In this document: one piece after another, positions 5,696-61,462 of the stretch
Numbering within the stretch: the first letter of the stretch is position 1
How the letters are laid out: each line of letters opens with the position of its first letter
Origin: a virus
Taxonomy: Duplodnaviria > Heunggongvirae > Uroviricota > Caudoviricetes
Virus record (IMG/VR): IMGVR_UViG_3300044693_000272
Length of the DNA stretch: 64,000 nt
Reading direction: 5' to 3' (one strand)
The notes under the pieces: generated by a model
The model's database searches: none
Seen by the model: only the letters and a program-made list of their open reading frames with translations
Told to the model about the DNA's origin: nothing
Position numbers and translations under genes: made by a program

Positions 5696-7192
5696 TTACT
5701 TGGCTTGGTTCAACAAGAACTGAACGAGCAACGGCACCGGTCGTCCGGTTGCTTCTTTGTTTTTACCACCAGTTGAAGCTGTACCAGCAATATCAAGGTG
5801 AGCCCAACGTGTGCCATCTTCGATGAAACGGCCCAAGAAACAAGCAGCAGATGAACTTCCACCATCACGACCACCAACATTAGCAACGTCCGCATGGTTA
5901 GTCTTCAACATATCATCGAACTCTTGATCCATGGGCATACGCCACACCGTATCCATAGCACCATAACCAGCATTGATCAGATCACGAGCAAGTTCATCAT
6001 CCTTGGTGAACAAACCACTATGCACTTCACCCAAGGCAACACAAATAGCACCAGTCAATGTAGCAAGGTCAATAATCAATGATGGCTTGGTGCGCAGCTT
6101 TTGTTGAGCATAGGTCAATGCATCACATAGAATCAAACGACCTTCAGCGTCAGTGTTGTTATTCTCGATAGTAATACCAGACATCGAGGTAACGATATCG
6201 CCAGGTTTAACAGCCGAACCTGATGGCATATTTTCACATGTTGGGATAACACCAACAATGTTCTTCTTAATGCCAATTTGTTGTGCGGCCTTGATGGCAC
6301 CAATAACGGCACCTGCACCAAGCATGTCGTACTTCATTTCGTTCATGCCAGATGATGGCTTGATCGAGATACCACCTGTATCAAATGTGATTCCCTTACC
6401 AACCAATGCTATAGGGGCTTCATCATAATTATCGGCACCATTGTATGAAATCAAAATAAGCTTTGGTTCCTGCACCGAACCTTGTGCAACTGACAAGAAC
6501 GAATTCATACCCAACTGCTCGATCGCATACTTGGTTAGTACAACCACGTCCGTGTTTTTATTGGCCAGTGTAATAGCCTGTTCACCAAGCCATGTTGGAG
6601 TGCAAACATTACCAGGTGTGTTACCGAGATCTTTCGTGAACGACATACCCGATGCAATAGCATTACCTGTATTAACCGAATCTTGCGCAAACGGCACGCT
6701 TTCATCGTCATCAATGACAACAGTAATTGCATTTGGGAAGACAACAGGTTCAGCCTTGCTCTTGAACTTGTCAAAAGAGTATTCGGCACCACGAAGCGTC
6801 ATGGTAAGCTCACGAAGAGCATCCAAGCCAGTCATGTACTGGGTGTTGATCTGTTCGATCAAACGTACCAGAACGCCGGAAAACGCACGACCTTTGATAT
6901 TTGATGCAACAGCAGAAACAGCCTTGTTGAATGCATGACGATCAAATTTTTCTCGTTTACCAAGACCAACAAGAAGAACTCTGGAGAGTGACGTCACAAA
7001 TTCAATATGCGTATTGCCCAGAGACGGTTTGAAATCACCATCAGCAATACGCTTGGAGATGACACCAGCGAAATATGAATCATATTCACTGACAATACCA
7101 GTCAGTATGTCTTCTTCAAACACACCAACAACAATCATGTCCTGATCTTGCGTTTTATCATAATCAGAATGACGAACTACTTTGATTTCCAT
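5696..7192 (-). CDS. pepA: leucyl aminopeptidase (M17)
   Basis: VGKGITFDTGGISIKP, MKYDM, NTDAEGRL, DLATLTGA, HLDIAG. Confidence 0.97.
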   Translation of the reverse strand: MEIKVVRHSDYDKTQDQDMIVVGVFEEDILTGIVSEYDSYFAGVISKRIADGDFKPSLGNTHIEFVTSLSRVLLVGLGKREKFDRHAFNKAVSAVASNIKGRAFSGVLVRLIEQINTQYMTGLDALRELTMTLRGAEYSFDKFKSKAEPVVFPNAITVVIDDDESVPFAQDSVNTGNAIASGMSFTKDLGNTPGNVCTPTWLGEQAITLANKNTDVVVLTKYAIEQLGMNSFLSVAQGSVQEPKLILISYNGADNYDEAPIALVGKGITFDTGGISIKPSSGMNEMKYDMLGAGAVIGAIKAAQQIGIKKNIVGVIPTCENMPSGSAVKPGDIVTSMSGITIENNNTDAEGRLILCDALTYAQQKLRTKPSLIIDLATLTGAICVALGEVHSGLFTKDDELARDLINAGYGAMDTVWRMPMDQEFDDMLKTNHADVANVGGRDGGSSSAACFLGRFIEDGTRWAHLDIAGTASTGGKNKEATGRPVPLLVQFLLNQAK

Positions 7193-7217
7193 ATTTGTTT
7201 TTATTTCCAAATGAAAA

Positions 7218-33237: not shown

Positions 33238-33300
33238 TGGATAGCTTTTTAACGAGTCAAATTAACGGTTTGATGTTTTTAAGTTTGCTGCAACTATCCA
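33238..33300 (-). ncRNA. minimal Y-RNA-like stem element
   Basis: TGGATAG-TTGCAGCAAA..AAAAAG-CTATCCA. Confidence 0.65.
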
Positions 33301-33380: not shown

Positions 33381-33473
33381 GTGTTTTGCTCCGCGTGTGA
33401 GGATCGAACTCACCTAGCCACTGATTAACAGTCAGGCCCATGCACCAAGCTCGGGTTTCGCGGAGCAAAACAC
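33381..33473 (-). tRNA. trnN: tRNA-Asn(GTT) with 15-bp extended acceptor stem, no CCA
   Basis: loop CTGTTAA; GTGTTTTGCTCCGCG/CGCGGAGCAAAACAC perfect inverted repeat. Confidence 0.8.
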
Positions 33474-41588: not shown

Positions 41589-43463
41589 TCACTTTGCTAG
41601 AAACTGTTTCCAGCGCTCCGTAAATGGAAACGAAGGTTGCTGTTTTTCAAGTTTAATGAACGGTTGGGATTCAGCGATAAATTCATCTTGACTGAGTGAA
41701 TTCCGTTCAATCAACACATTTGTAATATGTTTGTAATAGTCGAGGTGCTCACCGATCAAGGCCTTAGCACGAACATATTGTTGTTGAATCAAATCTTTCA
41801 CTGCTGGATCAGTTTCTTCGATCATCGTCAACCAATTGATCGTGGGTGATGCACTAGTTTCGATCAGCCCAACAACGTCAGTAAAGCCATAACGTCGCAC
41901 ATAGAAACTAGCACCTTCAGTTGCTTTAGCAATATCAGATTGCGCACCAGTAGTAGTATTTTCAATACCGAATACGATTTCTTCAGCAGCCCGTCCACTC
42001 AACAAAATGCAGAGATCATTTCGCAATCCCTCACGCGTCACTGCTTCGTTGTCTGGTGGAGGCAGCATGTAACCACCATTGAAGGAATTAATATTAACCT
42101 TCACTTCAAAAGGTGATGTCTTGTTCAACAATGCAAATGTGATCGCGTGCCCTGCTTCGTGTGCCGCAACCAACGTCTTATAATCAACCGATGTTTTCTT
42201 CTTGCGTTCGTTCATTTCGAACTCAACTGCAAACTTGGCTGTTTGCCCATCTGCTGTTGCATTAACAAAAGCTAAGCCATCATTGATCGTTAGCTTCACG
42301 TCTTTGTGGTCATTTTCAATGGCCCAAAACGTAACGTTGACGAGCAGATTACTGAAGATCTTATGAATCGAAGAAAAGACTGGTCGTGTTCCTTGTGTTG
42401 GGAAAACTGAATTGTCGTAAATTTGATCGAGTATTGACTGGTCGATGTCAAACTTGATATCTGATACCGCAGTCATCTCATCAGTGTAACGCTTGCACGT
42501 TGCTGCGATAAGCTTCTGGTATGACACTTTGCTCATCGAGGGATAGATGATGTGGTTATTGCCCATGCGAGCAATTTGCTCTGGGCGGAAGCGACGCAAC
42601 AGATTTGCCTTGATCTTGTTGGTTGAAATATTCTTCGTGATTTCGTGGTAGAAGTCAGCATCAGTGTCTGAATCGTCCGTACTGGTTGCACCAGCAAATG
42701 CAGTGTCAAGATTGCCAGAGATGAAGATGATCAACTTCGTATAATCAATTTCCCATGACTTGCGTGTTGCTTGAACTTTATGATATGCAGCTACCACATC
42801 TTTTGAATCCCACGACATGATCTCGGAAACTGAATTCGGCAAACGCAAAAGCTTCTTGATGTTGTTTGCTTCCCACATGTAGATCTTGTGCTTCTTGGAT
42901 TTTGCTTCACCTTCTGCCACAACTTCGCTTTCTTCATCATCGTCGTTCATGCGACTGGCCATCATCATTTCAATCTCATTGAATACTGATGAATCGGATG
43001 AGAATTTACCATCACTCAACAACGTCCATACGTCTTGATAACGTTCAACCTTCATGTCACCGCCGTTATCATCAACTGTACGGAAACGTTGAATCTCATC
43101 AAGCAACAAAATGCCTGGCTTACCTTCTTCAATTTTTGATTGCGACAAAATCGAAGAAAGTGAGTTACTAAAATAACTACCATGAGATGAACTACCATCC
43201 ATAACCACTTCAACAAAGCGGTCACTAAAATCGAGCAGGGAAACAATGCGACGCACGAGTTGCGTCTTGCCAACACCAGTCATACCCCAAAGGTTAACTA
43301 TGACTGGACGTGTAATAAGTTCAGGGAAAATATACCAGGCCGACATTGAATCAATCACCTTGTCGATGATTGAGTCGAGACCAAAGAATTCTGTTTTGAG
43401 CTGCTTTTTTACTTTTTCAAGTTCGACTCGCTTGGAGTCGATGACTGATTTGTCAAGTGCCAT
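41589..43463 (-). CDS. soluble AAA+ ATPase fused to M41 (FtsH-type) zinc peptidase
   Basis: GMTGVGKT, LLLDEIQ, RFRPEQIAR, GTRP, AAHEAGHA, GRAAEE, GA.SDI..AT; no TM segment. Confidence 0.9.
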   Translation of the reverse strand: MALDKSVIDSKRVELEKVKKQLKTEFFGLDSIIDKVIDSMSAWYIFPELITRPVIVNLWGMTGVGKTQLVRRIVSLLDFSDRFVEVVMDGSSSHGSYFSNSLSSILSQSKIEEGKPGILLLDEIQRFRTVDDNGGDMKVERYQDVWTLLSDGKFSSDSSVFNEIEMMMASRMNDDDEESEVVAEGEAKSKKHKIYMWEANNIKKLLRLPNSVSEIMSWDSKDVVAAYHKVQATRKSWEIDYTKLIIFISGNLDTAFAGATSTDDSDTDADFYHEITKNISTNKIKANLLRRFRPEQIARMGNNHIIYPSMSKVSYQKLIAATCKRYTDEMTAVSDIKFDIDQSILDQIYDNSVFPTQGTRPVFSSIHKIFSNLLVNVTFWAIENDHKDVKLTINDGLAFVNATADGQTAKFAVEFEMNERKKKTSVDYKTLVAAHEAGHAITFALLNKTSPFEVKVNINSFNGGYMLPPPDNEAVTREGLRNDLCILLSGRAAEEIVFGIENTTTGAQSDIAKATEGASFYVRRYGFTDVVGLIETSASPTINWLTMIEETDPAVKDLIQQQYVRAKALIGEHLDYYKHITNVLIERNSLSQDEFIAESQPFIKLEKQQPSFPFTERWKQFLAK

Positions 43464-44322: not shown

Positions 44323-44388
44323 TTCCTCTCCTATATGAGACTTCATTATACATTCATATGAATGGGAAGTCTAGGTTCGCCGGAAATG

Positions 44389-44414
44389 AAAAAGCGGCCT
44401 TTTAGGCCGCTTTT
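44389..44414. terminator. bidirectional terminator
   Basis: AAAAAGCGGCCT-tt-TAGGCCGCTTTT. Confidence 0.8.
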
Positions 44415-44427
44415 AAAACTTGATCAG

Positions 44428-44501
44428 TGGTGCCCCGTGACAGAATCGAACTATCGTCTGATGATTACAAGTCAACTGTTCTACCATTAAACTAACAGGG
44501 C
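44428..44501 (-). tRNA. trnT: tRNA-Thr(TGT)
   Basis: loop CTTGTAA, CCA. Confidence 0.92.
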
Positions 44502-44564
44502 GTACTTGATTACAACTACATTTCTATTTAGCAAATTGAATCAATTTGCTAAGAGTTTCAAACA

Positions 44565-44848
44565 GGATGGATTGTGCATGCAGTTTTTTGTTTATCGTTT
44601 GGTCTACATAGCAAGCTGCCTTATCCTTCACGTACTGACAAAAATTTCATAATGCCAGCGGAAGACCTTATCAACAAGCGTACACCCACCAAACTATCAC
44701 GTATTCTACGTGCCTATCTCGCGCATTTCGTCTACGAGCCCAACGCCACATATTCGCTATGGACACTATCCGTTACATCAGCTTTCACCTAAAAGGTGAA
44801 AGCATTCAACGGCTTTCTATATTAGAAAGTTTATTGCTGTACCCATCC
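44565..44848 (-). ncRNA. long (284 nt) Y-RNA-like element L1
   Basis: GGATGG-GTACAGCAAT..CAAT-CCATCC ends; core shared with L2. Confidence 0.65.
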
Positions 44849-44888
44849 AAACACCTAACTATCCAAAAGCCAGTGCTTTGAAACTACC

Positions 44889-45087
44889 AGGATTGTGGTC
44901 TCCCTACTATCGATTCAAGGCCAGGATCTTCCTTGGTCGATCTCGTTTCTACGAGCACTATTCCATATTCTATGGACACTATCTTCATCGCACTCCACAC
45001 ACGACCTTTCGGTCTTAGCATTTAAGCCAGCACATGGATCATGAAGCAACGCCGGATTAAGTAATTTTGGCTTGCTGTAACAATCCT
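44889..45087 (-). ncRNA. long (199 nt) Y-RNA-like element L2
   Basis: AGGATTGT-TACAGCAAG..ACAATCCT ends; core shared with L1. Confidence 0.65.
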
Positions 45088-45231
45088 AAAACATCTATTC
45101 TAACAGAGTTACCAAACAAGTCAACAACTTTGTTAAAATTTTCTACACATTGACGACGTAGATAACTTCAATCAATCACGAAGGTTTATTAACCGTATGC
45201 CATTTTACGCCTTCCATAGAGAAATGCAATA

Positions 45232-48738: not shown

Positions 48739-48874
48739 AGGATCCTATTTTCACATTGTCTAGCGCGTCTACCAATTTCGCCATAATCCACTTTTAAGGG
48801 TGGATCAGAAGGACTCGAACCTTCACGTCTTGCGACACCAGATTCCTTAGCCTATAGATTGCTGTAAGGATCCT
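48739..48874 (-). ncRNA. YrlA-like circularly permuted tRNA-Leu mimic
   Basis: AGGATCCT-TACAGCAAT, Leu 3' half (variable and T arm), TAAAA linker, Leu 5' half (GTGGATTATGGCGAAATTGGTAGACGCGCTAGAC), AAAAT-AGGATCCT. Confidence 0.8.
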
Positions 48875-49154: not shown

Positions 49155-49267
49155 AGGATGAACTTTTAAGTCGGGCGCCTTACCACTTGGCGACTAGGTC
49201 TTTCAACCTAGGTAGAGAATCGAACTCTACGCTTGCCCGATTGACCAGTAATTGCTGAACTCATCCT
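49155..49267 (-). ncRNA. YrlA-like circularly permuted tRNA mimic
   Basis: AGGATGA-GTTCAGCAAT..TCGGG..GTAGAGTTCGATTCTCTAC-CTAGG-loop-CCTAG-D arm-CCCGA..AAAAGT-TCATCCT. Confidence 0.8.
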
Positions 49268-52039: not shown

Positions 52040-53110
52040 TTATACTGCATCGTAGTTGAAGTACTTGGGTTGCACCTTCTTCAGAATCAACTTTCGTGTG
52101 GCATCACCAAACACGAATGTACTTTGTGATGAATCAATTTTCTGCAGGTGGCTAGATGTGAAACTAACCGTTGACCATTCCCAATCACCTTCATCAGCAC
52201 TGGAATCTTCGTAATAACCAATGGAGATACCTTCAGGTGAAAGAGGATTACCACGCCATTCACGATCACCAGACATACGACGTTCTTCAACTTCCTTACC
52301 GTTGATGATAAGTTGCACTTCATACTTGGCATCGTTGTCGTACTCTGGGCTTGCATTCAGCATACGCAATGCATCTTGCGGACTTTCGCCATAACGATTC
52401 ATTTCTTCGACCAAAGCTTTCAGCATATCGAAGTTGAACTGATGGAACAACGAAGCAATTGAGCAAATCTTGTCGATATGCTGTTTGTTCTCCAAGTTGT
52501 CTTCGCAGTATTCACGAATGAATGATTCCGCCAAACCTTTAAAGTCGATCATGTAATAGATACGACCCGGACGATTACGCATGTGTGAATCGACACGGTA
52601 TTTGTCATTGCATGTGATCACAAACAACTTCTTGCTGGGGAAAACACCATCAAGCAGAGTCAGGATTTCTTCCTGATCTTCACGATCGTATACTTTTTCA
52701 AATTCGTCGAACAAAACTACACAAGGCTGGTTTATGTCCTGCATGAACTTGTTGAAGCCATCACCCTTCCATGCTGCATTGATAACGATGGTCGGAATAC
52801 CTTGCTCAGCGCACTTGATTGACAATGTCTTAGCAAGCAAAGACTTTCCACTACCCTTTTCACCGGTAAGCATAACGCCAGTGCTTACTGTGCGTTGCAT
52901 GAATGTGTTAATGATTCGATCTGCATTGCGAGATGTATCGCCGTACATCTTACTGATGGGAGTGAAACTGTCGATCATCTCCAGATACAATGCACCAGTT
53001 TGAGGATTTTGGCGAACGATGTAATTACCAGCTGGCAATTCGCTGTGAATATCAAGTGATGCGGAATCTGAAACGCTGAAAGTGTTGCCGTTACGGATGA
53101 AATATGACAT
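52040..53110 (-). CDS. AAA+ ATPase
   Basis: GEKGSGKS, VLFDEFEK, LLDG, RNRPGRI. Confidence 0.9.
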   Translation of the reverse strand: MSYFIRNGNTFSVSDSASLDIHSELPAGNYIVRQNPQTGALYLEMIDSFTPISKMYGDTSRNADRIINTFMQRTVSTGVMLTGEKGSGKSLLAKTLSIKCAEQGIPTIVINAAWKGDGFNKFMQDINQPCVVLFDEFEKVYDREDQEEILTLLDGVFPSKKLFVITCNDKYRVDSHMRNRPGRIYYMIDFKGLAESFIREYCEDNLENKQHIDKICSIASLFHQFNFDMLKALVEEMNRYGESPQDALRMLNASPEYDNDAKYEVQLIINGKEVEERRMSGDREWRGNPLSPEGISIGYYEDSSADEGDWEWSTVSFTSSHLQKIDSSQSTFVFGDATRKLILKKVQPKYFNYDAV

Positions 53111-53207: not shown

Positions 53208-53522
53208 TTACTCAATCTGGGCAGCAATCAGGTGTCCATCTGCGTCAATGTCAAAAACACATGTATGCTTGGAAACATAAACAACATAACCAACAGTATG
53301 ATTCTTATTATCGACTACATCTTCTACTACCCAATCTTTGTATCGATTGGTATCCATACCAGTCACTTGACCACAAGCATATCGCAAGTAATCTTTTGAT
53401 GCTGTTTGTTCTGCTTTAGATGGCGGACTTGCATGAGCGTGCTGTGCCATAAACATCACAATCACGCTCAAACAAATTGCCACAACTGCAAGCATGCAAG
53501 TACGAACAATATCAACTTTCAT
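53208..53522 (-). CDS. secreted/membrane-anchored hypothetical protein
   Basis: N-terminal signal-like hydrophobic segment. Confidence 0.65.
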   Translation of the reverse strand: MKVDIVRTCMLAVVAICLSVIVMFMAQHAHASPPSKAEQTASKDYLRYACGQVTGMDTNRYKDWVVEDVVDNKNHTVGYVVYVSKHTCVFDIDADGHLIAAQIE

Positions 53523-53602
53523 TTATGTCCCCTTTATAGACGTTGTTCACCTAGAACGGTAGCACAAATGGCAATAAGAATATGTAAGTACTTACACTAG
53601 TA

Positions 53603-53959
53603 TTACATATAAGATCGAAACCGTTCTCGGGCGCGTGAAGAAATGTTGCGATTACGTGCTACTTTCTCCCATCGCAAATTGGCTTGTTTCCAACGCTTTG
53701 CCGCTTTTTCAGGCCCATGGCTGACTATATGATGTAGCATACCAAAGAACCTGATCTTGAATTGAATATTCAAGGCATATGGTCGTTTCGTTTTATAATT
53801 CTCAAACAGACGACTTTTGCGACGTTCCTTTATATTGCTGTAATAATAAAGAATGTACGTTTCTTTCTTACCGAATGAAGATTTCGCTCGAGCTTTCGAA
53901 AGAGACACTCGATAACGTGCCTTCTTAGAAAAACCATCTGGGCAAAAATGCTTGCTCAT
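53603..53959 (-). CDS. basic hypothetical protein
   Basis: 118 aa, K/R-rich. Confidence 0.55.
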   Translation of the reverse strand: MSKHFCPDGFSKKARYRVSLSKARAKSSFGKKETYILYYYSNIKERRKSRLFENYKTKRPYALNIQFKIRFFGMLHHIVSHGPEKAAKRWKQANLRWEKVARNRNISSRARERFRSYM

Positions 53960-54279
53960 GCCTCTTTATCCGTTAAAAACGAATCAATCAGTGCTTGTTC
54001 ACTTGGTTTTTTCCAGTTCATAATTTGACCAGTTTCAATATCAATAACGAATTCGATATAGTCTGAACGACCAAAACCCAAACCTGATGGCATATAGCCA
54101 TCAATGTTAAACAAGATTCCACCATCGCTATTCGTTGCAATAACCTGTGACCGATCATCACACTTGCCACGCACACGCATGAACTTGATCGAATGCACTT
54201 TGTTCAGAGCATCAGCTTCTCGACGTGCTTGCTCACCTTCGCCGTGATCTTCTTCAAACTGATTATCAAACATACTCAT
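53956..54279 (-). CDS. hypothetical protein
   Basis: K.DDR, DGYMP, DYIEF.ID.ETGQI.NW. Confidence 0.7.
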   Translation of the reverse strand: MSMFDNQFEEDHGEGEQARREADALNKVHSIKFMRVRGKCDDRSQVIATNSDGGILFNIDGYMPSGLGFGRSDYIEFVIDIETGQIMNWKKPSEQALIDSFLTDKEA

Positions 54280-59626: not shown

Positions 59627-61462
59627 TTAAAATTGATAACCTGCACCGACTACTGCGCCAAAGTCACCACGGCTGTTACCTGTAACTGCTCCCTTCACTA
59701 CCCAACCGCCAGTAGCAGTAGATACGCCGATCGCGTAACCAGTAGCACCATGATACGTGCTCGCTGCTGCCGACATCATAGAATGGCCATTACTCATCGG
59801 TTGCGGGAGGCCTGCTACTGCCATTGCGCTGGCTACACCACCATACATATCTTGACGAAGCGTGCTAATGTCGCTCTCTGCTTGATTAAAGCGTTGATTC
59901 GTGTAGTTGTTGGCTGCCTGCACACCATTTGCAACCGATTGATCAGTATAACTGTTAGCAGCTTGTAAAGTCGCTGCCGACGACTGATCAGTGTAAACGT
60001 TGGATTGTGCATGCGCTTGTGCCACTTCATCATGGGATGCCGATTGCTGTTGAAGCGTTGCAATGTCACCAGTATTTTGTGTCACTTGCGATTGCAAACC
60101 AGCTTCAGCAGTCTTCGCACGTTGCGTTTCATTCGAGATTGCATTTGCATTCGTTTGTTCAGCAGCCTGCGCACGAGTCGATTCTGCACCAACCTGCTGG
60201 TCAGTGTACGTCTTCGCCCCAGCCAACGTCTTACTTGCAACTTGATTCGTATATTGGTTTGACGTCATAACTGCCGCACCATATGCGATTGACGCGTCTT
60301 TTGCTGCAACCGCATCAGCATGTCGGTTAGCCGCCGAGAGAGTCTTGGCTGCCGTCTGGTCAGTGTAACTTTTTGCAGAAGCAGCATTCGTTGTGATCTG
60401 AGACTGCAGGTTGTTTTCGGCTCCTTCAGCACGTGTTGTTTCAATGCCGATTGCCGTGCTCAGCGATGCTTCAGCTGCTTGAGCACGTTGCGATTCACCA
60501 GCAACCTGTCCCATGGTGAAGCTATTTGCTTGTTCGATCGCATTACCCATCGCTTGAGTAACTTCCGAATGCGTAGCGCTCTTTTGTTGCAGCGAAGCAA
60601 TATTGGACGTGTTCGTCGAAACTTGCTTCGCAACATTTGCCACATTAGCATTTGTTTGGTCAAGACGTTGATCAGTTGCGTTGATCGCGATCGAATTACC
60701 AATACCGATGCCAATCGCCACACCAGCTCCAGTCAATGCTTGATTAGCAGTGCTCTGTGCCGCGCCTGCGGCACCAAGTGCTTTATCTGCAGTTGATTGC
60801 GCAGTATTAACCTTTGCATTCAGCGTCGACTCTGCTGTTTGTGCGCGAGCGGTTTCAGCAGCCGTTGCTCCAGCCGCAGTCGATGCATTTGCCGCAATCT
60901 GCGATTGCAACATTCCTTCAATTGTCGTTGCTCGCTGATTTTCACCTTGAACCATCGATGAAGCGGTTGCCGCGTTGTTGTTGATTTGAATCTGCAAGCC
61001 AGCTTCAACACCTTGTGCCCGTTGCGTTTCAGCGCCTACGACTGTGCTCGCATTTGCATTAGCCGCTGACAATGTCGCAGCCGCCGAATTCATCACTTCT
61101 TGATGAGAAGCACTATTCGTCTGTAGGCTATTGATAGCTGCCGTATTTGCATTTACTTGCGTTTGTGTGCTGGCGAGACCTTGACCCAGGCCGTTGACAG
61201 TGGTGTTAGTGTTGTTGATCTGCGTTTGCAAATCGCCAGCTTGTTTTTGCAAAACAGTGATATTACCAGCATTCGTCGTGATCTGACTTTGCAAACCAGA
61301 TTCTGCATTGGTTGCTCGGGTCGTTTCTGTTGCAATGCTTTGATCAACATATGTTTGGGTTGCACTTGTGCAGTCATGCGGATTACCAGTGCAATCTGCA
61401 AAAGCTTGCGAAGAGATTGCCAAAATAGCAATCATTGTCGAAGCCATAAGACTCTTCTTCAT
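59627..61462 (-). CDS. YadA-family trimeric autotransporter adhesin
   Basis: Sec signal peptide (..SQAFA), E..RA..AE coiled-coil stalk repeats, AN.YTD neck repeats, GGVASAMA..LPQ..GAGYQF anchor. Confidence 0.9.
   Translation of the reverse strand: MKKSLMASTMIAILAISSQAFADCTGNPHDCTSATQTYVDQSIATETTRATNAESGLQSQITTNAGNITVLQKQAGDLQTQINNTNTTVNGLGQGLASTQTQVNANTAAINSLQTNSASHQEVMNSAAATLSAANANASTVVGAETQRAQGVEAGLQIQINNNAATASSMVQGENQRATTIEGMLQSQIAANASTAAGATAAETARAQTAESTLNAKVNTAQSTADKALGAAGAAQSTANQALTGAGVAIGIGIGNSIAINATDQRLDQTNANVANVAKQVSTNTSNIASLQQKSATHSEVTQAMGNAIEQANSFTMGQVAGESQRAQAAEASLSTAIGIETTRAEGAENNLQSQITTNAASAKSYTDQTAAKTLSAANRHADAVAAKDASIAYGAAVMTSNQYTNQVASKTLAGAKTYTDQQVGAESTRAQAAEQTNANAISNETQRAKTAEAGLQSQVTQNTGDIATLQQQSASHDEVAQAHAQSNVYTDQSSAATLQAANSYTDQSVANGVQAANNYTNQRFNQAESDISTLRQDMYGGVASAMAVAGLPQPMSNGHSMMSAAASTYHGATGYAIGVSTATGGWVVKGAVTGNSRGDFGAVVGAGYQF

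What the first reader, a model, noticed from the sequence alone, without database searches (positions are those of the whole stretch)
44565..45087. Tandem long Y-like RNAs (284 and 199 nt) sharing an internal conserved core
Seen: two adjacent elements with the family's terminal helix and ACAGCAA. Inside, both carry (plus strand) TCGT(C/TTC)TACGAGC..ATATTC(GC)TATGGACACTATC followed by a hairpin. The rest of the sequence and the length differ. No credible ORF overlaps them. Inference: duplicated, diverged large ncRNAs with a second conserved functional domain. This pattern could reflect guide/antisense or protein-binding cargo.
Basis: partly seen in the sequence, partly recalled or inferred. Interest (0 to 1): 0.72.

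Follow-up and report, generated by a model that had tools for sequence, protein, structure and literature searches.

The report
Two long phage Y-like RNAs
Two neighbouring non-coding RNA genes in a giant phage's tRNA region belong to a large, apparently undescribed family of phage RNAs; in other phages the family sits beside a Ro60-shaped RNA-binding protein, and these two carry a folded domain that there lies directly in front of that protein's gene.

Summary
On the minus strand, L2 (45087-44889, 199 nt) and L1 (44848-44565, 284 nt) each close with a 7-8 bp terminal helix. UACAGCAA follows the 5' arm, and both share an internal core. They are two of at least 11 "handle" RNAs in the window. 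The same handle occurs in more than 120 viral contigs, almost always inside tRNA arrays, and its variable stem positions covary. In 65 of 120 such loci the neighbour is a DUF2828/DUF7788 protein, and a model of it matches only Ro60 over its full length. The shared core belongs to a larger pseudoknotted domain with strong covariation. A covariance model built without L1/L2 picks L1 as the best hit in the window and L2 second locally. All 33 of its other hits that I checked lie just upstream of the Ro60-like gene. Here there is no such gene within 64 kb. The pair has its own promoter and is followed by tRNA-Thr and a terminator. Protein binding and expression are untested, and antisense targeting is not supported. 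This scan has met the handle family on other DNA at least ten times. I found no published description.

The parts
44889..45087 (-). L2: a 199-nt handle RNA. It has the terminal helix AGGAUUGU/ACAAUCCU, UACAGCAA at 45079-45072 and a trimmed B-type cargo.
   Evidence: z -2.61. R1 scores 12.1 bits, E 0.008, over 44889-44987 with filters off.
44565..44848 (-). L1: a 284-nt handle RNA. It has the terminal helix GGAUGG/CCAUCC, UACAGCAA at 44841-44834 and a B-type cargo with extra insertions.
   Evidence: z -4.63. R1 gives the best hit in the whole window, 44571-44722, 20.2 bits, E 0.006.
44964..44983 (-). L2 core hairpin Pb: GAUAGUGU-CCAUA-GAA-UAUGG.
   Evidence: The stem pairs covary among relatives (AU/GC/GU and GC/UA).
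44749..44770 (-). L1 core hairpin Pb, copy 1: GAUAGUGUCCAUAGCGAAUAUG.
44694..44720 (-). L1 second Pb-like hairpin: GAGAUAGG-CACGU-AGAAU-ACGUG-AUAG. This is the copy that the relatives' model aligns to.
   Evidence: Alignments.
44942..44955 (-). L2 hairpin Pc: CUCGU-AGAA-ACGAG. The L1 counterpart is GCUCGUAGACGA at about 44727-44740.
44601..44667 (-). L1 helix M5, GGUCU (44667-44663) paired with AGACC (44605-44601), enclosing a 57-nt insertion. The conserved tail AAACGAUAAAC follows.
   Evidence: R1 alignment. The same helix covaries in relatives (helix 4).
45097..45124 (-). Promoter-like site: TTGACT, 16-nt spacer, TG-n-TAGAAT. It ends 10 nt before L2.
   Evidence: 10 of 12 matches, with an extended -10 TG. 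A consensus match only.
44428..44501 (-). tRNA-Thr(UGU), 63 nt downstream of L1 on the same strand.
44388..44419 (-). Terminator-like hairpin, AAAAGCGGCC-UAAA-GGCCGCUUUU followed by a U run, directly after tRNA-Thr.
   Evidence: Read from the sequence and from the stem shown in the alignment. The simple scan did not list it.
44849..44888 (-). L2-L1 spacer. It holds GCUUUUGGAUAGUUAGG, which looks like the decayed 5' start of a further handle element (compare the element at 33299).
   Evidence: Inference.

Best explanation
L1 and L2 are two tandem, diverged paralogues of a long subclass of a widespread phage non-coding RNA family.

Architecture:
- Each RNA has a 'handle': a 6-8 bp helix formed by the 5' and 3' ends (GGAUnnn/nnnAUCC). 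Single-stranded UACAGCAA follows the 5' arm, and a U/A-GU tail follows the 3' arm.
- Each RNA also has a cargo. In L1 and L2 the cargo is a multi-hairpin domain, which I call B-type here.
- The B-type domain consists of AAUGCU plus a hairpin, the GAUAG(U)GUCC...GGAAU hairpin, an AGAA-loop hairpin, and a helix followed by AGAAAAUAAAC. In fuller versions there is also a loop-to-tail pseudoknot.

Inferred expression: the pair is transcribed from its own sigma-70-like promoter as L2-L1-tRNA-Thr, ending at the terminator. It would then be cut into separate stable RNAs.

Inferred function, by analogy with Ro60/Y RNA particles:
- The handle docks a phage Ro60-like ring protein (DUF2828/DUF7788). That protein would have to be encoded elsewhere in this roughly 520-kb genome.
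- The B-type domain is the second, effector or gating module. It would recruit or occlude another factor, much as Y RNAs tether PNPase.

Shown here: the sequence features, family membership, covariation of the handle and of the B-type domain, and synteny of both with the Ro60-like gene in other phages.
Inferred: transcription, processing, protein binding and the role of the cargo.
For: Family in the window:
- Eleven handle elements lie in the window, all on the tRNA strand.

Family elsewhere:
- At least 120 viral contigs hold the handle motif.
- 117 of 120 loci carry tRNA genes.

Handle helix:
- I located the 3' end independently of the variable bases.
- 150 of 165 distinct elements then pair at 2 or more of the 3 variable positions, against about 61 in shuffles.
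- A-U, C-G, G-C and U-A exchanges occur.

Protein partner:
- The neighbour is DUF2828+DUF7788 in 65 of 120 loci.
- The AlphaFold model has pLDDT 74.
- Its top 12 PDB matches are all Ro60/Rsr over about 520 columns, with E values from 2e-8 to 2e-5.

L1/L2 core:
- It recurs in handle RNAs 48-153 nt before a conserved N-terminal motif of the DUF2828 ORF in three other lineages.

B-type structure on 12 relatives:
- 96.7% of cells are paired, against 28-38% when partners are slid.
- 14 pairs change on both sides.
- 0 of 500 shuffles reach the observed values.
- The pseudoknot helix is supported.

Model R1, built without L1 and L2:
- L1 is the best hit in 64 kb (E 0.006).
- L1 and L2 are the top two hits locally.
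- 33 of 33 further hits lie on the same strand upstream of the DUF2828 ORF. All but one lie within 15-259 nt of its start.

Local signals and analogy:
- A promoter-like site lies upstream, and a tRNA and terminator downstream.
- Fold z-scores are -4.63 and -2.61.
- A phage Ro60 binds two Y-like RNAs encoded upstream of its gene (PMC12135203).
- A Ro60-like phage protein counters the Ppl defence (bioRxiv 10.1101/2024.10.10.617714).
Against: - No DUF2828 or TROVE gene lies in the 64-kb window. The rest of the genome could not be read.
- In relatives L027 and L117 the Ro60-like gene lies directly before an AAA ATPase gene. The window keeps that ATPase gene but not the Ro60-like gene at that place.
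- The handle lacks the published Ro60-binding motifs, and Rfam Y-RNA models do not match.
- R1 scores for L1 and L2 are low (20 and 12 bits), and the model's E-values are rough.
- No expression data exist, and no binding has been shown for any member of the family.
- No orthologue close enough to test covariation within L1 or L2 themselves was found.
Confidence: 0.6

Rival explanations
1. The B-type domain is mainly a cis-acting 5' leader of the Ro60-like gene, for example an autoregulatory binding site. L1 and L2 would then be orphaned, possibly decaying copies left behind after the gene was lost or moved.
For: - In every relative checked the domain lies on the same strand before the DUF2828 start, within 15-259 nt in all but one (950 nt).
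- Here the Ro60-like gene is missing at the place where relatives L027 and L117 have it.
- L2 is a trimmed version without the tail or pseudoknot, and the spacer holds a degenerate handle start.
Against: - In relatives the domain is enclosed by a complete handle, like the free-standing family members. One or two further short handle RNAs usually separate it from the ORF.
- L1 and L2 keep intact helices and the motif, have their own promoter-like site, and fold better than shuffles.
- Two copies are retained.
- Known Y RNAs are also encoded directly beside their Ro60 gene (PMC12135203).
Confidence: 0.15
2. The handle is only a processing or stability module of tRNA-array transcripts, that is, an RNase entry site or a protective end helix. 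L1 and L2 would be structured spacers with no protein partner of their own.
For: - 117 of 120 loci are tRNA arrays.
- The elements lie between tRNAs on the tRNA strand. One handle encloses a normal tRNA-Asn.
- The 7-bp helix followed by U resembles a tRNA acceptor stem plus U8.
Against: - The single-stranded UACAGCAA and the CUGU-like tail are conserved across very different phages, which a bare processing helix does not require.
- The association with one protein family is strong.
- The B-type cargo is large, conserved and pseudoknotted.
Confidence: 0.12
3. L1 and L2 act as antisense or guide RNAs through their variable interiors.
For: The interiors differ between the two copies.
Against: - The longest antisense matches to same-strand sequence in the window are 11-12 nt, no longer than for shuffled versions.
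- The interiors are largely occupied by conserved or stable helices.
Confidence: 0.04
4. The region is a decayed protein-coding remnant or a chance similarity.
For: Small ORFs of up to 72 aa overlap it.
Against: - Homologous elements differ by indels of arbitrary length and by compensatory base-pair changes.
- A structure-aware model built from other phages finds both copies.
Confidence: 0.02

Closest known systems
Bacterial and phage Y RNAs with Ro60/Rsr: YrlA and YrlB, D. radiodurans Yrn1, and Thermus phage phiLo Yrl1 and Yrl2 (PMC4201824; PMC12135203)
   Same: - The RNA is modular. A stem made by the 5' and 3' ends carries a conserved motif, and a second module follows.
- Several paralogous RNAs occur per genome.
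- In relatives they are encoded on the same strand right beside the gene of a Ro60-fold protein.
- Other members in this window carry a tRNA-like module with a closed acceptor stem, exactly as YrlA does.
   Different: - The handle motif is UACAGCAA next to a short 7-bp helix, not GNCGAAN0-1G, CGAA or GGUCCGA in a long bulged stem.
- The protein is DUF2828/DUF7788. Pfam hits for the representative were those two families only, and it resembles Ro60 only by fold.
- The L1/L2 cargo is not tRNA-like.
- No Rfam Y-RNA match was found.
- In this window no Ro60-like gene is adjacent.
Dictyostelium Class I RNAs (Rfam RF01414; PMC7919456)
   Same: - The layout is the same: a 5' G, a short terminal stem, the motif (CCU)UACAGCAA directly after the 5' arm, a variable interior, and a 3' arm followed by CUGU.
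- It is the only Rfam family that the handle touches. The scores are 19 and 17 bits, with E values of about 1-2.
   Different: - Scores are far below the gathering threshold of 41.5.
- Class I RNAs are 42-65 nt long, eukaryotic, driven by a DUSE promoter, reported to bind the RRM protein Rnp1A, and reported as restricted to Dictyostelia.
- L1 and L2 are 199 and 284 nt long and come from a phage.
- Whether the likeness reflects common descent or a shared partner was not tested.
The handle RNA family of phage tRNA arrays. It is not in Rfam, and I found no paper on it. This scan has noted it at least ten times on other DNA.
   Same: L1 and L2 have every handle feature, the same strand and the same tRNA-array context.
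   Different: - They are among the longest members seen.
- They lie in tandem with their own promoter.
- They carry the B-type domain away from any Ro60-like gene. L1 has a duplicated Pb hairpin and a 57-nt insertion.

Membership tests
Y RNA / YrlA (partners of Ro60/Rsr) | Bound by a Ro60/Rsr protein | not testable with these tools
   No binding data exist. The only evidence is synteny of the family with a Ro60-fold protein in other phages.
Y RNA / YrlA (partners of Ro60/Rsr) | Stem formed by the 5' and 3' ends that carries the Ro60-binding motif (GNCGAAN0-1G, CGAA or GGUCCGA) | tested here: not met
   A terminal stem is present. The adjoining motif is UACAGCAA, and the published motifs are absent from the handle.
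Y RNA / YrlA (partners of Ro60/Rsr) | Encoded within about 4 kb of the Ro60 gene on the same strand | tested here: not met
   No TROVE or DUF2828 gene lies in the 64-kb window. The feature is met by the homologous RNAs in relatives, with respect to DUF2828.
Y RNA / YrlA (partners of Ro60/Rsr) | Match to the Rfam covariance model or a tRNA-like module | tested here: not met
   No Y-RNA family appears even at E up to 10. I saw no T- or D-arm in L1 or L2 when reading the sequences and folds, unlike the elements at 49266, 48873 and 30071.
Dictyostelium Class I RNA (RF01414) | 5' G, short terminal stem, 11-nt motif CCUUACAGCAA after the 5' arm, 3' CUGU | tested here: met
   L2 has UGUUACAGCAA (9 of 11) and L1 has GGGUACAGCAA (8 of 11). 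The terminal stems are present. The 3' ends read CCUGG and CCUGU (the family's consensus is).
Dictyostelium Class I RNA (RF01414) | Length 42-65 nt, score above the Rfam gathering threshold, dictyostelid genome with a DUSE promoter | tested here: not met
   The lengths are 199 and 284 nt. L1 and L2 do not match RF01414 in the permissive scan. Short members of the family reach 17-19 bits against a threshold of 41.5. The genome is a phage with bacterial-type signals.
Phage handle RNA family (undescribed) | Covarying 6-8 bp terminal helix GGAUnnn/nnnAUCC, U-N-CAGCAA after the 5' arm, and a U/A-GU tail | tested here: met
Phage handle RNA family (undescribed) | Located in a phage tRNA array on the tRNA strand | tested here: met
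   All 49 tRNAs and all 11 elements are on the minus strand, and tRNA-Thr lies 63 nt after L1. 117 of 120 loci elsewhere hold tRNAs.
B-type cargo domain (defined here) | Pb hairpin GAUAG(U)GUCC..GAA..GGAAU, Pc hairpin, helix M5 plus an AGAAAAUAAAC tail, recognised by model R1 | tested here: met
   L1 scores 20.2 bits (E 0.006) and is the best hit in the window. L2 scores 12.1 bits (E 0.008) locally. L2 lacks the tail and the pseudoknot.
B-type cargo domain (defined here) | Lies directly upstream of the DUF2828 gene | tested here: not met
   33 of 33 relatives meet it. L1 and L2 are followed by tRNA-Thr and a terminator instead.

The most novel reading that the evidence does not exclude
The handle RNAs and the DUF2828 ring protein form a second, so far uncharacterised lineage of Ro/Y-type ribonucleoproteins. 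It would be spread through phages and share its RNA docking module with the 'orphan' Class I RNAs of social amoebae.

Within it, the B-type domain of L1 and L2 would be a dedicated effector module. It would recruit a host nuclease or decoy a defence nuclease (Ppl is one candidate), and it would work in trans even when uncoupled from the protein gene, as here.

A further unexcluded twist concerns the Pb hairpin. In relatives it reads GGUCCGGA-GAA, reminiscent of the classical GGUCCGA Ro60 site. It may therefore be a second protein-binding site, so that long members bridge two rings.
Probability: 0.25. Interest if true: 0.85.

Novelty: new variant of a known kind. Interest (0 to 1): 0.7.

Why it matters
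Ro60/Y RNA particles are a classic RNA-surveillance system, yet their bacterial and phage versions are known from only a few examples.

If the reading here is right, a far larger set of phages carries a parallel system. That set includes huge phages and many uncultured ones. The system would use a different docking motif and exchangeable cargoes:
- no cargo;
- a tRNA mimic;
- a real tRNA;
- the pseudoknotted domain of L1 and L2.

That would give a direct handle on three questions:
- what the widespread 'RNA-binding protein' (DUF2828) gene of phages does;
- why it sits at tRNA arrays;
- how one such protein defeats the Ppl defence.

It would also give a testable clue to the function of the Dictyostelium Class I RNAs. 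L1 and L2 add one specific point: the gene-proximal domain can exist as a free-standing, duplicated RNA gene. That argues the domain acts in trans.

Tried and rejected
- **Permuted-tRNA maturation.** I first read the element at 48873 as a circularly permuted tRNA gene that a cut-and-join step would mature. A 7-nt anticodon loop could be rebuilt for 49266 but not for 48873 (my own reading). The closed acceptor stem fits a YrlA-type tRNA mimic better, so I dropped this.
- **5S rRNA mimicry by the core.** I compared it by eye with the E. coli 5S loop E region recalled from memory. Permissive Rfam scans give no 5S match, so it is not supported.
- **Known RNA family.** There are no Rfam matches for L1, L2 or the B-type domain.
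- **Close relatives of L1/L2.** None were found by blastn in INPHARED phages, among 120 viral loci, or by exact-word scans of viral and metagenome contigs. Two of the three metagenome pattern hits were chance matches inside coding sequence, and the third was a contig already held.
- **Flanking 267-aa protein.** It has no relative in IMG/VR and no Pfam or PHROG family.
- **Ro60-like gene in the window.** hmmsearch of all frames and hhalign of the large orphan ORFs were all negative.
- **Rest of the genome.** No whole genome is held. The Logan contig came without DNA. A second protein was not on record.
- **B-type domain in cultured phages.** The regions around the DUF2828 gene (1.5-2.5 kb of flank on each side) gave no R1 hit in nine cultured or deposited phages: Synechococcus BUCT-ZZ01, Erwinia Kaldavass, an uncultured 735-kb phage, Aeromonas LAh_8, Vibrio D483, Sinorhizobium phiM19, wV8, Campylobacter QDYZ and Mycobacterium LilDestine. 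BUCT-ZZ01 does have three handle RNAs before the gene.
- **Antisense targets.** None above chance.
- **DUF2828 in Dictyostelium.** The protein-atlas look-up said nothing about it.
- **PDB by sequence.** The DUF2828 profile found nothing. Only the fold comparison did.

Full report
**1. The observation.**

All 49 tRNA genes of the window lie on the minus strand. Read on that strand, the finding resolves into two elements.

- L2 runs from 45087 to 44889 (199 nt). Its ends pair as AGGAUUGU/ACAAUCCU.
- L1 runs from 44848 to 44565 (284 nt). Its ends pair as GGAUGG/CCAUCC.
- In both, U-ACAGCAA directly follows the 5' arm.

The shared interior is real.
- There is a 14-nt exact repeat plus flanking similarity.
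- The pairwise alignment gives AAUGCU + hairpin + GAUG.AA + GAUAGUGUCCAUAG(CG)AAUAUG + GCUCGUAGA.
- Only ORFs of 72 aa or less overlap the region.
- The minimum-energy folds close the terminal helix and are more stable than shuffles: z is -4.63 for L1 and -2.61 for L2.

**2. The family.**

A relaxed motif search finds at least 11 elements in the window with the same ends. All are on the minus strand, and their 5' ends lie at 49266, 48934, 48873, 45086, 44848, 37099, 36983, 33358, 33299, 30071 and 28488.

Their interiors differ.
- Four are 50-62 nt long with only a small hairpin.
- One encloses an ordinary tRNA-Asn.
- Three hold a tRNA-like body whose acceptor stem is closed by a loop, which is the YrlA architecture.
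- L1 and L2 hold something else.

The bare word ACAGCAA is not enriched, but the module is.
My rough estimate of the chance number is about ten.
- 117 of the 120 loci carry tRNA genes, many of them over 20.
- For the helix test I located the 3' end only by its constant part (the first ATCC[TA]GT). With that, 150 of 165 distinct elements pair at two or three of the three variable positions, against about 61 in shuffles. All four Watson-Crick types occur. The helix is therefore selected as a helix.

**3. The protein neighbour.**

I clustered the ORFs of the 120 loci. One family of about 470 aa is present in 65 of them.
- Its Pfam domains are DUF2828 and DUF7788.
- A sequence profile finds nothing in the PDB.
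- An AlphaFold model (pLDDT 74) matches Ro60/Rsr structures as its top 12 hits, over the whole length. These include Thermus phage phiLo Ro60, D. radiodurans Rsr, and Xenopus and human Ro60. Isolated vWA domains follow.
- tblastn finds the family in 707 deposited phage genomes, where it is often annotated 'RNA-binding protein' or 'Ro-like RNA binding protein'.
- Other frequent neighbours have an RNA-repair flavour. They are a calcineurin-like phosphoesterase, a dual-specificity phosphatase-like protein and an AAA_33 kinase.

**4. What the L1/L2 core is.**

The 20-nt core word occurs in only three viral contigs, which are identical over the region shown. There it lies inside a 166-nt handle RNA that ends about 30 nt before the start codon of the DUF2828 gene. 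Another handle RNA and a TTGACT-17-TACAAT promoter precede it.

Looser patterns add two further lineages, L132 and the large freshwater group exemplified by L010.

Comparing these shows a larger domain, which I call B-type here:
- AAUGCU plus a hairpin;
- hairpin Pb, GAUAG(U)GUCCnnn-GAA-nnnGGAAU;
- hairpins Pc and Pd;
- helix M5, GGUCUGA/UCAGACC, followed by AGAAAAUAAAC;
- a pseudoknot between the M5 loop and the tail.

On 12 relatives, 96.7% of cells are paired, against 28-38% when partners are slid. Fourteen pairs change on both sides, four of the five pseudoknot pairs among them. None of 500 shuffles reaches the observed values.

**5. Testing L1 and L2 against the relatives' model.**

I built a covariance model (R1) from those 12 relatives, without L1 or L2.
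- L1 (44571-44722) is the best hit of the whole window, at 20.2 bits and E 0.006.
- With filters off on 651 nt, L1 and L2 are the top two hits, both on the minus strand.
- The alignment shows that L1 holds a second Pb-like hairpin (44694-44720), the M5 helix with a 57-nt insertion, and the AAACGAUAAAC tail.
- L2 is a trimmed form with no tail or pseudoknot.
- R1 finds 35 further loci. All 33 that I checked lie on the same strand upstream of the DUF2828 ORF, within 15-259 nt in all but one (950 nt). Three of them score about 21 bits, the same range as L1.
- No hit was found around the gene in nine cultured or deposited phages.

**6. Local context.**

Within the window there is no Ro60-like gene.

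A sigma-70-like promoter (TTGACT, 16-nt spacer, TG-n-TAGAAT, 45124-45097) ends 10 nt before L2. After L1 come a 12-bp palindrome, tRNA-Thr and a terminator hairpin. L2-L1-tRNA-Thr therefore looks like a small transcription unit of its own.

The window's AAA ATPase gene (52040-53110) is 58% identical to the gene that directly follows DUF2828 in L027 and L117. Here, small ORFs occupy the place of DUF2828.

According to earlier notes of this scan, the genome is a megaphage of about 520 kb. I could not read the rest of it.

**7. Mechanism.**

The best-supported reading is that L1 and L2 are stand-alone Y-RNA-like scaffolds. The handle would dock a Ro60-like ring protein, and the B-type domain would be the second module.

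The analogy rests on published systems.
- Bacterial YrlA and YrlB are encoded beside rsr (PMC4201824).
- The phiLo Ro60 binds two upstream Y-like RNAs and, with them, the host PNPase (PMC12135203).
- For the DUF2828-type protein, the only functional datum I found concerns Bas63 gp130, described as Ro60-like. It counters the Ppl defence, and its authors guessed that some neighbouring 'tRNAs' may be Y RNAs (bioRxiv 10.1101/2024.10.10.617714).

Binding, processing and expression are all inferred.

Rivals:
- The main rival is that the B-type domain is a cis leader of the protein gene and that L1 and L2 are orphaned copies.
- A pure processing role is less likely.
- Antisense action has no support.

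**8. Comparison and novelty.**

The handle does not carry the published Ro60-binding motifs and matches no Rfam Y-RNA model. I therefore do not file L1 and L2 as YrlA members. They work like Y RNAs by context.

The only Rfam family the handle touches is the Dictyostelium Class I RNA, at 17-19 bits, far below threshold. The layout is nevertheless the same: a 5' G, a short stem, (CCU)UACAGCAA and a 3' CUGU (PMC7919456). This is a striking resemblance, not a membership.

I reached the Class I and Ro60-fold links before opening the scan's notes. Those notes show that the handle family was seen at least ten times before on other DNA, with the same two links.

I found no paper describing these RNAs.

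What this finding adds is the B-type domain. It has a covariation-supported fold and strict synteny with the Ro60-like gene elsewhere. Here it occurs as a duplicated, free-standing gene pair.

Noticed in passing
window 49266-49155, 48873-48739 and 30071-29954 (minus strand): Three handle RNAs have interiors that form a tRNA-like body. They have T and D arms, one has a long variable arm, and the acceptor stem is closed by a short loop. This is the YrlA-type tRNA mimic layout, and it looks like a permuted tRNA.
   Followed up: partly
window 36983-36873 (minus strand): A handle helix and a CAGCAU motif enclose a complete, ordinary tRNA-Asn(GUU) that has an encoded CCA.
   Followed up: no
window 48934-48884, 37099-37050, 33358-33309 and 33299-33238 (minus strand): Four minimal handle RNAs of 50-62 nt, two of them back to back. 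These are the members most like Dictyostelium Class I RNAs.
   Followed up: partly
window 52040-53110 (minus strand); L027 and L117: This AAA ATPase is 58% identical to the gene that directly follows the DUF2828 (vWA-containing) gene in two viral contigs. Here small ORFs (53208-54279) occupy the place of DUF2828. Whether the two genes are functionally linked was not tested.
   Followed up: partly
window 44528-44552: A perfect 12-bp palindrome, TTAGCAAATTGA-T-TCAATTTGCTAA, lies between L1 and tRNA-Thr. Its function is unknown.
   Followed up: no
window 33384-33464 (minus strand): A tRNA-like stretch scores below the tRNA threshold (22.5 bits). It is nevertheless 85-91% identical to sequences in many of the viral loci, so it is a conserved non-standard tRNA-like gene.
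   Followed up: no
window 44571-44590 (L1 tail, minus strand): The L1 tail holds the 8-nt palindrome UGCAUGCA at the place where relatives have the pseudoknot strand. It could pair with GUACGUG in the L1 insertion (6 of 7 pairs) or mediate dimerisation.
   Followed up: no
L143 2158-2490 (Synechococcus phage BUCT-ZZ01, ON615601.1): A cultured cyanophage has three unannotated handle RNAs (176, 59 and 66 nt) directly before its DUF2828 gene. The long one is not recognised by model R1 but ends with a similar helix + UUAAAAUAAGAC tail.
   Followed up: partly
window 41589-43463 (minus strand): A 624-aa FtsH-like protein (AAA + peptidase M41) is encoded in the phage tRNA region. Elsewhere in the window there are an M17 leucyl aminopeptidase (5696-7210) and a protein with a YadA-type anchor (59627-61462).
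   Followed up: no
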